From: Escherichia coli
GTDB lineage: Bacteria > Pseudomonadota > Gammaproteobacteria > Enterobacterales > Enterobacteriaceae
DNA: 64,000 nucleotides
Assembly: GCF_041248615.1 (NCBI RefSeq)
Contig: NZ_CP158426.1
Reading direction: 5' to 3' (one strand)
Below are positions 2,864 to 3,642 of the stretch, one piece after another; position 1 is the stretch's first letter, and the number at the start of each line of letters is the position of its first letter. Below the pieces are notes generated by a model, which saw nothing but the letters and a program-made list of their open reading frames with translations, had not been told where the DNA came from and did no database searches. Position numbers and translations under genes: made by a program.

Positions 2864-3602
2864 TCTGTTATTCTCCTGTATTATTACTTCACCAGCCAGA
2901 ACGGTAGTGCGGAGCAAAAATACAGTGATAAGAATCCTCTTTTATTAATTTAATAATGCCAGGAATATTATTGTGTATAATATGCGACCTCAATTTAAGC
3001 AGCAGAAAAGCAATGACGCGAAAATCATTAAAATACATAAAGATAAAACATCATAACTATAATTATAATAAGCGCGCTTATTTTAGCATCTGAACATTTA
3101 AAGTACTGCCATCACAAAACAATAAAAATCCTGGTTAATATCTCTGATGATTGAATGAGAAATTCACGATGTCTGGTGAGAATTCTGTTCAAAACGAGGA
3201 ATGCAGACATACATGTGGCAGGCATGGACTTCCACCGATTTAACTTTTTTCCTTCCTTGTATTTACACATCACACATTTTGCGCTACAAAAATTTCACGT
3301 GGCACGCACCACGTGATCCGTAGAAAAGCCTCTTGTTACGAATTTCGTAAACCGCACATCTGTCTGGTCGTGCGGATTTTTTATCCGTCAACTTCACATG
3401 AAACCGCCAGATCACTGTTTCCGGATTCAGACATCAGGCATATTATCATCCACAATGTCGTGAACAAGATCACACTTTTGCAATTCCTTTATTGATCGAA
3501 AGCAGTTAATCACGGAAATTAATTACCGGAGTGAAAGCATTTGCTATGTAAACATTCCCAGAAGACATCTTCATGTTGAATATGACACCCTTATTGACTA
3601 CA

Positions 3603-3636
3603 CCCCTCTGACAGAATTTTCAGAGGGGTTTTTTTA
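3603..3636 (+). terminator. Rho-independent terminator-like hairpin
   Basis: CCCCTCTG ... CAGAGGGG stem followed by TTTTTTT. Confidence 0.5.
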
Positions 3637-3642
3637 TCAGTT

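What the first reader, a model, noticed from the sequence alone, without database searches (positions are those of the whole stretch)
2918..3642. 725-bp ORF-poor intergenic region with hairpins and a plus-strand terminator
It contains a perfect 8-bp hairpin (TCACGTGG-cacgca-CCACGTGA), a second hairpin with a T run near 3350-3383, and a strong terminator at 3603-3636 on the strand opposite to the flanking genes. This could be an sRNA locus or the boundary between two mobile elements.
Basis: seen in the sequence. Interest (0 to 1): 0.3.

Follow-up and report, generated by a model that had tools for sequence, protein, structure and literature searches.

The report
Terminator-studded leader of a prophage adhesin gene
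The hairpins are real, but the stretch is most likely the ordinary non-coding control region between a prophage tail-fibre gene and a (here broken) adhesin gene, with terminators that stop backward transcription, not a demonstrated small-RNA gene.

Summary
The true gap is 2864-3642, because the left-hand gene starts at the ATG at 2863.

The window is E. coli NRZ14408. The gap lies between the tail-fibre-assembly gene (tfa, DUF4376) of a lambdoid prophage and a co-directional YadA-like trimeric adhesin gene. That adhesin gene is truncated at about 2050, next to a Mu-like prophage.

The gap, the last 80 bp of tfa and the adhesin signal-peptide coding region travel as one unit in 370 of 5426 complete E. 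coli genomes. Only 21 of these keep the full tfa. Nothing related turned up outside E. coli apart from one Salmonella protein fragment.

No Rfam family, protein family or phage record matches, and indels break the small ORFs.

The strong plus-strand terminator beside the tfa stop codon is a generic feature: 15 of 18 distinct tfa homologues carry one. Classical Eib adhesin loci have the same layout, and one has three such terminators in a row.

Best reading: an insulator plus promoter and leader region of an adhesin "moron" (an accessory gene with its own promoter, added to a phage genome). An 88-nt small RNA (3296-3383) is not excluded, but its promoter evidence is weak. Ordinary; low interest.

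The parts
2050..2863 (-). 5' part of a YadA-like trimeric autotransporter adhesin (TAA) gene. It is a pseudogene here: the membrane anchor and the downstream regulator gene are missing.
   Evidence: RefSeq marks it 'YadA-like, incomplete, missing C-terminus'. Intact alleles of 387-452 aa carry YadA_anchor at 2.9e-16. Homology to intact alleles stops at about 2050.
2862..2939 (-). Predicted imperfect long hairpin in the adhesin leader that pairs the ribosome-binding site and start region. It may control translation (inferred).
   Evidence: The fold of 2958->2845 gives dG -24.8 and z -2.55. The zone is almost invariant among alleles.
2965..2993 (-). Best promoter-like site for the adhesin gene: TTGAGG-17-TAATAT, transcription start near 2958.
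   Evidence: It has the top score (8.3 bits) in my position-weight-matrix (PWM) scan and lies in sequence nearly invariant among alleles. Not tested experimentally.
3010..3109 (.). AT-rich allelic patch with two alleles only about 60% alike. It contains a second minus-strand promoter-like site (3094-3065, TTCAGA-18-TATTAT).
   Evidence: Alignment A1, promoter scan, 28-31% G+C. An IS66 sits at 3075-3083 in strain 135.
3109..3542 (.). Conserved non-coding core.
   Evidence: 97.6-100% identical in 370 genomes. No conserved ORF.
3212..3308 (+). Direct repeats CAYGTGGCASGCA (3212-3224 and 3296-3308) that bound an 84-bp presence/absence polymorphism.
   Evidence: The short form occurs in L061 and L065.
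3295..3316 (.). H1, a perfect 8-bp palindromic hairpin holding two CACGTG motifs. On the minus strand it is followed by AAATTTTTG, a weak terminator that the 84-bp-short allele lacks.
3336..3350 (+). Hs, a small 6-bp hairpin between H1 and H2.
3352..3383 (+). H2, a plus-strand intrinsic terminator: a 6-7-bp G+C-rich stem followed by U6.
   Evidence: It is invariant except A/G at 3358, and G strengthens the stem.
3543..3600 (.). Second allelic patch, including a 26-bp indel.
   Evidence: It explains the 76% coverage class.
3602..3636 (+). H3, a strong plus-strand intrinsic terminator whose U7 run ends 6 nt before the tfa stop codon.
   Evidence: Three stem variants all keep pairing. The same arrangement follows 15 of 18 distinct tfa homologues.
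3643..4218 (-). Tail-fibre-assembly gene (DUF4376). Its last 80 bp (3643-3722) always accompany the gap.
   Evidence: Pfam 1.5e-20. Homology ends at 3722 in all non-prophage copies.

Best explanation
The gap is the non-coding control and insulator region of an Eib-like adhesin 'moron' (an accessory gene with its own promoter, added to a phage genome) at the far end of a lambdoid prophage tail operon.

From the tfa side it has three parts:
1. H3, a terminator facing against tfa and touching its stop codon.
2. A conserved core ending in the H1-Hs-H2 block, where H2 is a second terminator of the same polarity.
3. An AT-rich zone with the adhesin's own minus-strand promoter(s) and a structured leader.

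Inferred mechanism: plus-strand (antisense) transcription starts in the AT-rich promoter zone or enters from the adhesin/attR side, and is stopped at H2 and then at H3 before it can run backwards into the tail genes. The adhesin gene is transcribed on the minus strand from its own promoter in the lysogen. No strong minus-strand terminator separates it from tfa, so late transcripts can also reach it.

In this window the adhesin gene is truncated and its regulator gene is gone, so the region is a relic.

Shown: the structures, their orientation, the linkage, the generality of the tfa-end terminator and the absence of coding signal. Inferred: the source of plus-strand transcription, the promoter positions and the insulating role.
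For: - Structures and polarity.
- Genes either side are tfa (DUF4376) and a YadA-like adhesin, both on the minus strand.
- The gap plus the signal-peptide coding region (2780-3722) stays 89-98% identical even where the first 172 aa of the adhesin (signal peptide plus passenger head) are only 43-54% identical. This fits a shared expression cassette.
- In an intact prophage (strain 135) the order is J-lom-tail fibre-tfa-gap-adhesin-sigma-region-4 HTH-dinI-like-ORF6N-ompW remnant, so the adhesin is cargo near attR.
- 15 of 18 distinct sequences after homologous tfa genes have an opposite-strand terminator 5-11 nt from the stop, and only 2 have a same-strand one. The constant A-run before the stem argues that the opposite-strand U-tract is what is kept.
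- In six such loci the next gene, 375-808 bp on, is a co-directional Eib-type adhesin. The one tested matches EibD at 1.7e-31, and its gap carries three opposite-strand terminators in series.
- The adhesin-proximal part is 28-31% G+C with the best promoter-like sites on the minus strand.
Against: - No transcript data were available, so no plus-strand transcript is shown to exist.
- No strong plus-strand promoter was found (best 6.3 bits).
- H2 has a 10-12-nt loop and escaped the stricter terminator scan.
- The lom moron in the same prophage is instead flanked by same-strand terminators, so this polarity is not the standard moron pattern.
- Sequence conservation says nothing about selection, because the coding flanks are equally conserved.
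Confidence: 0.55

Rival explanations
1. One or two plus-strand small RNA genes. Candidate A is about 88 nt (3296-3383): a 5' hairpin H1, a single-stranded AUCCGUAGAAAAGCCUCUUG stretch, Hs, then terminator H2 with U6. Candidate B is about 110-185 nt ending at H3. They would act by base pairing, like other prophage-borne Hfq-dependent sRNAs.
For: - Two well-formed plus-strand terminators have no plus-strand ORF to serve.
- The H1-Hs-H2-U6 block is invariant in every copy examined, including the 84-bp-short allele.
- 3384-3640 folds better than shuffles, z -3.35.
- An Eib-type gap also carries tandem opposite-strand terminators 130-170 bp apart.
- Known prophage sRNAs have the same 3' stem-loop plus U-tract design (paper 10.64898/2026.05.13.724894).
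Against: - No Rfam family reaches threshold here or in the Eib-type gaps. The Pas paper cites AgvB, AsxR, Esr41, IsrG and STnc100 as Rfam families, and none appeared.
- There is no match in 50,697 phage records.
- The only promoter-like site ahead of H1 (TTTACA-17-TACAAA, my reading of the sequence) lacks the final T of the -10 box and is deleted in the 84-bp-short allele. Other plus-strand sites score 6.3 bits or less.
- The block 3280-3390 is only marginally more stable than shuffles, z -1.8.
- There is no outgroup, so no covariation evidence.
Confidence: 0.22
2. Recombination scar. The hairpins are leftover terminators from earlier cargo genes or earlier tfa ends, stacked by successive module exchanges downstream of tfa, with no present function.
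For: - The tails of H2 and H3 are alike: GGATTTTTTATCCGT and GGTTTTTTTATCAGT.
- A minus-strand ORF (3381-3473) stops exactly at the A-run before H2, the same geometry as the tfa stop and H3.
- Two allelic patches of about 60% identity show repeated recombination inside the gap.
- Cargo after homologous tfa genes varies widely.
Against: - Translations of 3384-3640 show no resemblance to tfa or any family.
- There is no DNA similarity to other tfa loci.
- All three H3 variants keep a paired stem.
Confidence: 0.15
3. An unannotated small protein gene or a decayed protein-coding gene lies in the gap.
For: ORFs of 40-60 aa exist on both strands. The 3155-3316 (+) ORF ends 36 nt before H2. Some gene callers have called ORFs here.
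Against: - None of ten ORFs hits Pfam or PHROGs.
- The 1-bp indel at 3403/3404 breaks 3313-3495 (+) and 3284-3415 (-). The 84-bp indel removes part of 3155-3316 and 3201-3323.
- Substitutions show no third-position bias (my reading of A1).
- Ribosome-binding sites are poor.
- The called proteins are only E. coli copies of the same DNA.
Confidence: 0.05
4. A phase-variable invertible promoter. The 16-nt inverted repeat CCAGGAATATTATTGT / ACAATAAAAATCCTGG (2959-2974 and 3119-3134) flanks a 144-bp promoter segment that flips to switch the adhesin on and off.
For: The inverted repeat flanks the promoter-like zone of an adhesin gene.
Against: - All five alleles compared are collinear (forward score 64-142, reverse -2 to -7).
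- Every listed BLAST hit is a single collinear piece.
- No recombinase gene is adjacent.
- Imperfect repeats of this size are common in this AT-rich DNA.
Confidence: 0.02

Closest known systems
eib loci of lambdoid prophages (immunoglobulin-binding trimeric adhesins EibA/C/D/E/G; Sandt & Hill 2000-2002, recalled from my own knowledge because those papers were not held)
   Same: A trimeric autotransporter gene sits just after, and co-directional with, the tail-fibre-assembly gene. A 0.4-0.8-kb non-coding gap separates them, starting with an opposite-strand terminator at the tfa stop. NCBI labels relatives of this adhesin 'immunoglobulin-binding protein'.
   Different: The gaps share no detectable sequence similarity. 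The signal peptide and head differ. The intact allele does not match the EibD structures in the PDB, only the YadA anchor. It is followed by a sigma-70 region-4-like HTH gene. Immunoglobulin binding was not tested.
Morons of lambdoid phages, such as lom and bor (definition of Juhala, Hendrix and colleagues, from my own knowledge)
   Same: An accessory gene with its own AT-rich promoter zone sits between genes that are adjacent or differently filled in related phages, and can be expressed from the prophage.
   Different: The terminators in this gap face against the gene, whereas lom in the same prophage has same-strand terminators on both sides. The module has also left the phage: 349 of 370 genomes carry it without an intact tfa.
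Prophage-borne Hfq-dependent sRNAs of pathogenic E. coli (PasA-D, AgvB, AsxR, Esr41, DicF)
   Same: Intergenic position in a lambdoid prophage and a 3' stem-loop plus U-tract.
   Different: No covariance-model or sequence match, only a weak promoter, and no expression evidence. Pas genes sit by lysis or structural genes and occur in sequenced phages, whereas this region occurs in none.

Membership tests
Intrinsic (Rho-independent) terminator | G+C-rich stem-loop directly followed by a U-tract on the transcribed strand | tested here: met
   H3: 10-bp stem, 6 G-C pairs, U7. H2: 6-7-bp stem then A and U6. H1 on the minus strand is marginal, with three A's before its U5.
Intrinsic (Rho-independent) terminator | Pairing kept when the stem sequence varies | tested here: met
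   Three H3 stem variants all fold, at -14.7 to -18.0 kcal/mol. The A/G change in H2 strengthens its stem. This rests on very few variants.
Intrinsic (Rho-independent) terminator | Actually ends a transcript in vivo | not testable with these tools
   No transcript 3'-end data were available.
Base-pairing small RNA gene | Own promoter giving a discrete primary transcript | tested here: inconclusive
   Only weak plus-strand promoter-like sites. The one ahead of H1 is absent from the 84-bp-short allele.
Base-pairing small RNA gene | Match to a described RNA family | tested here: not met
   Nothing in Rfam 15 above chance. Nothing in the analogous Eib-type gaps.
Base-pairing small RNA gene | Structure supported by covariation in relatives | tested here: inconclusive
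   No relative beyond near-identical E. coli copies.
Moron (phage accessory cassette) | Present between genes that are adjacent or differently filled in related phages | tested here: met
   After homologous tfa genes come Eib-type genes, other cargo or host genes. In strain 135 the cassette lies between tfa and dinI-like/attR.
Moron (phage accessory cassette) | Own promoter upstream and own terminator downstream, in the gene's orientation | tested here: inconclusive
   Promoter-like sites exist on the minus strand. The downstream end is missing in the window, and no clear same-strand terminator was seen after the HTH gene in L065.
Eib immunoglobulin-binding adhesin locus | Trimeric autotransporter with a YadA-type anchor, encoded downstream of prophage tail-fibre genes | tested here: met
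   Intact alleles carry YadA_anchor at 2.9e-16. Position after tfa is shown. The window's own copy lacks the anchor.
Eib immunoglobulin-binding adhesin locus | Sequence relationship to Eib passenger domains and Ig binding | tested here: not met
   No match to the EibD structures at E <= 0.001, whereas a true Eib-type gene gives 1.7e-31. Ig binding itself cannot be tested here.
Invertible promoter switch | Both orientations of the segment between inverted repeats occur, with a recombinase nearby | tested here: not met
   All alleles are collinear, and no recombinase gene is adjacent.

The most novel reading that the evidence does not exclude
The invariant block 3296-3383 (H1, single-stranded stretch, Hs, H2, U6) may be a previously undescribed small RNA carried by an adhesin island of poultry-associated and extraintestinal E. 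coli. More generally, the tandem opposite-strand terminators between tfa and Eib-type adhesin genes may mark a recurrent class of short antisense or divergent transcription units in lambdoid prophages.
Probability: 0.2. Interest if true: 0.45.

Novelty: new member of a known kind. Interest (0 to 1): 0.2.

Why it matters
The practical value is annotation. Strong hairpins in a long gene-free gap next to tail-fibre genes are not, by that alone, evidence of a small RNA.

A terminator facing against the tail-fibre-assembly gene at its stop codon is a regular feature of this phage module. The adhesin genes that follow it, Eib-type and this YadA-like type, bring long control regions of their own.

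If the plus-strand terminators prove to end real transcripts, the locus would be a small test case for how prophages shield their silent structural genes from transcription started in accessory cargo.

The adhesin module occurs in 6.8% of complete E. coli genomes, many of the listed examples from poultry, and it hitchhikes with resistance regions.

Tried and rejected
- Rfam on the region at E <= 1 gave only a chance hit. The whole window and five Eib-type loci gave nothing in the gaps.
- A DNA search of 50,697 phage records found no match. Plasmids gave one E. coli IncI plasmid copy.
- Outgroup hunts all failed to find a diverged copy:
  - The H1 pattern in IMG/VR gave one E. coli contig and two chance hits.
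  - The regulator protein appears only in E. coli plus one Salmonella fragment.
  - The adhesin N-terminus has no relative in 100,044 species representatives.
  - The H1..H2 pattern has no match in the same collection.
  - A gap ORF used as protein bait recovered only the same alleles.
- Ten small ORFs against PHROGs and Pfam: nothing.
- Six-frame translation for gene remnants: frames are full of stops and nothing is recognisable.
- Invertible-switch test: rejected.
- The motif CAYGTGGCASGCA elsewhere in the window is no more frequent than chance.
- Duplex prediction between candidate RNAs and the adhesin leader was uninformative, because unrestricted duplexes are unrealistic.
- Local alignment of this gap to Eib-type gaps scored at the null level.
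- The Sandt & Hill papers could not be read.
- svsR and the Pas sRNAs were checked in the literature. Both sit elsewhere in prophages.

Full report
**Observation.** The three hairpins are in the sequence at the stated places.
- H1 is TCACGTGG-CACGCA-CCACGTGA at 3295-3316. It is a palindrome, so it folds on either strand (dG -12.7 and -14.2 kcal/mol; z -3.6 and -3.0).
- H2 is CCGCAC...GTGCGG at 3352-3375, followed by A and T6 (dG -12.1, z -3.1). In the commoner allele, with G at 3358, it is -14.3.
- H3 has a 10-bp stem at 3602-3629 followed by T7 (dG -18.0, z -4.6).
- A fourth small hairpin, Hs (3336-3350), lies between H1 and H2.

The consensus scan found three terminator-like sites in 2700-3900 against 0.8 +/- 0.8 in shuffles. 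A permissive scan of my own found 14 plus-strand sites in the whole 64 kb, and two of them fall in this gap. The gap itself is 2864-3642. The left gene starts at the ATG at 2863 behind AGGAGA, not at the upstream TTG.

**Context.** The window is 100% identical to the E. coli NRZ14408 chromosome.
- To the right, all on the minus strand, lie tfa (DUF4376, 3643-4218), a collagen-like tail fibre, lom, and a J gene split by IS1414. This is the end of a lambdoid prophage's late operon.
- To the left, also on the minus strand, is a YadA-like trimeric adhesin gene. It is truncated at about 2050, where Mu-like prophage genes begin (Mor, gp16, Gam, DDE transposase).
- Intact alleles elsewhere are 387-452 aa, carry a YadA anchor, and are followed by a 151-aa protein with a sigma-70 region-4 fold.
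- In strain 135 the whole arrangement is seen inside a prophage at ompW/yciE: J, lom, tail fibre, tfa, gap, adhesin, HTH, dinI-like, ORF6N, attR. The adhesin is therefore accessory cargo near the prophage end.

**Distribution.** The gap occurs in 370-371 of 5426 complete E. coli genomes, with up to 8 copies in one genome.
- It always comes with the last 80 bp of tfa (to 3722) on one side and the adhesin start on the other.
- Only 21 genomes keep the full tfa. In the other 349 the match stops at 3722, next to a transposase fragment in a chromosomal island beside a PTS/transketolase operon, or in IS- and ISCR2-rich resistance regions. One copy is on an IncI plasmid.
- The region 2780-3722 stays 89-98% identical even where the first 172 aa of the adhesin (signal peptide plus passenger head) are only 43-54% identical.
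- Inside the gap, a 434-bp core (3109-3542) is 97.6-100% identical everywhere. Two patches, 3010-3109 and 3543-3600, exist as alleles only about 60% alike or differing by a 26-bp indel.
- An 84-bp segment (3212-3295) is present or absent between direct repeats CAYGTGGCASGCA.
- The coding flanks are as conserved as the core, so the conservation reflects recent spread and says nothing about selection.

**What it is not.**
- No Rfam family matches.
- None of ten small ORFs hits Pfam or PHROGs, and the 1-bp and 84-bp indels break the ORFs they overlap.
- All six reading frames are full of stops.
- No phage record holds similar DNA.
- The 16-nt inverted repeat around the promoter zone is not an invertible switch, because all alleles are collinear and no recombinase is nearby.
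- Every attempt to find a diverged relative for a covariation test failed. Nothing related was found outside E. coli apart from one Salmonella protein fragment of the regulator.

**The telling comparison.** I fetched 49 loci encoding relatives of tfa at 54-89% protein identity. None shares DNA with this gap except one E. coli contig.
- In 15 of 18 distinct downstream sequences, the stop codon is followed within 5-11 nt by an A-run and a G+C-rich hairpin. That is an intrinsic terminator for the opposite strand. Only 2 have a same-strand terminator. At least five different stem sequences are involved. H3 is therefore a generic part of this tfa module, and the constant A-run argues that the opposite-strand U-tract is what is maintained.
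- In six of these loci the next gene, 375-808 bp further on and co-directional, is an Eib-type adhesin. The one tested matches EibD at 1.7e-31.
- That locus carries three opposite-strand terminators in series in its gap, though its sequence is unrelated to this one.
- The window's locus thus has the architecture of the classical eib loci, with a different adhesin and a different leader.

**Mechanism.** Shown: two good plus-strand terminators (H2, H3), no strong minus-strand terminator between tfa and the adhesin gene (H1 is marginal and loses its U-tail in the short allele), an AT-rich zone (28-31% G+C) next to the adhesin start, and a leader that can fold over the ribosome-binding site (z -2.55). 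The AT-rich zone holds the best minus-strand promoter-like sites: TTGAGG-17-TAATAT with a start near 2958, and TTCAGA-18-TATTAT with a start near 3058.

Inferred: the adhesin is expressed from its own promoter in the lysogen. Plus-strand transcription, arising divergently in the AT-rich zone or entering from the attR side, is stopped at H2 and then H3 before it can run antisense into the tail genes. I put this at 0.55.

**Rivals.**
- A plus-strand small RNA, most plausibly the invariant 88-nt block 3296-3383, fits the terminators but lacks a credible conserved promoter and any match or expression evidence (0.22).
- The hairpins may be inert scars of earlier module exchanges. The similar tails of H2 and H3, and a minus-strand ORF stopping at H2's A-run, hint at this, but no gene remnant is recognisable (0.15).
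- A small protein gene (0.05) and an invertible switch (0.02) are disfavoured.

**Verdict.** The sRNA idea is untested and weakly supported. The 'boundary of two mobile elements' idea is wrong for these coordinates, because the true breakpoints are 3722 and about 2050. The region is an ordinary kind of thing, a terminator-bearing control region of a prophage adhesin cassette, in a form not described before, and in this window it serves a broken gene.

Noticed in passing
window 1-2050 (and upstream in NZ_LT599825.1, locus L066): A Mu-like transposable prophage (DDE transposase, ExeA-like B protein, Gam, gp16, Mor at 315-701) abuts the truncated adhesin gene at about 2050. Its late genes lie on the opposite strand to its early genes, so the element looks rearranged, and the junction sequence ends ...TGATCA.
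   Followed up: partly
window 2121-2368: The adhesin stalk contains a 99-bp tandem repeat (about 2.5 copies at 97% identity). Copy number differs among strains, giving proteins of 387-452 aa.
   Followed up: partly
L002, L004, L009, L062-L064: The gap plus a 195-aa N-terminal fragment of the adhesin (annotated 'Tat pathway signal sequence protein') sits directly beside sul2, floR, dfrA36, aph genes and ISCR2. One copy is on an IncI plasmid (pNDM5_LS003). The fragment is hitchhiking with resistance modules.
   Followed up: partly
window 6060-6075 and 6733-6752 (minus strand): The lom gene (6104-6703) is bracketed by two compact same-strand terminators, the textbook moron layout. This contrasts with the opposite-strand terminators upstream of the adhesin gene.
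   Followed up: no
window 7459-8667: IS1414 (IS256 family) interrupts the tail-tip J gene, so this lambdoid prophage is probably defective.
   Followed up: no
window 4233-6038: The tail-fibre gene encodes long collagen-like Gly-X-Y repeat blocks with many internal DNA repeats.
   Followed up: no
L013 3588-4395: The gap upstream of an EibD-like gene holds three A-run-plus-GGGGAG-type hairpins 130-170 bp apart, all terminators for the strand opposite to tfa and eib. One has the same CACGCA loop as H1. Whether these mark small transcription units is unknown.
   Followed up: partly
window 32516-32955, 54448-54641, 54781-55103: Rfam finds a cspA thermoregulator leader and two naRNA4 (CssrE) copies. 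Rfam and ARAGORN find three tandem tRNA-Leu(CAG) genes. These are host chromosome features far from the finding.
   Followed up: no
L012 1041-1198, L016 533-691, L024 565-723: Matches to the Rfam sok antitoxin RNA model (RF01794) appear about 2-2.5 kb upstream of tfa in three Eib-type prophage loci. One (59.6 bits) just reaches the gathering score of 59, and two (57 and 55 bits) fall just below it.
   Followed up: no
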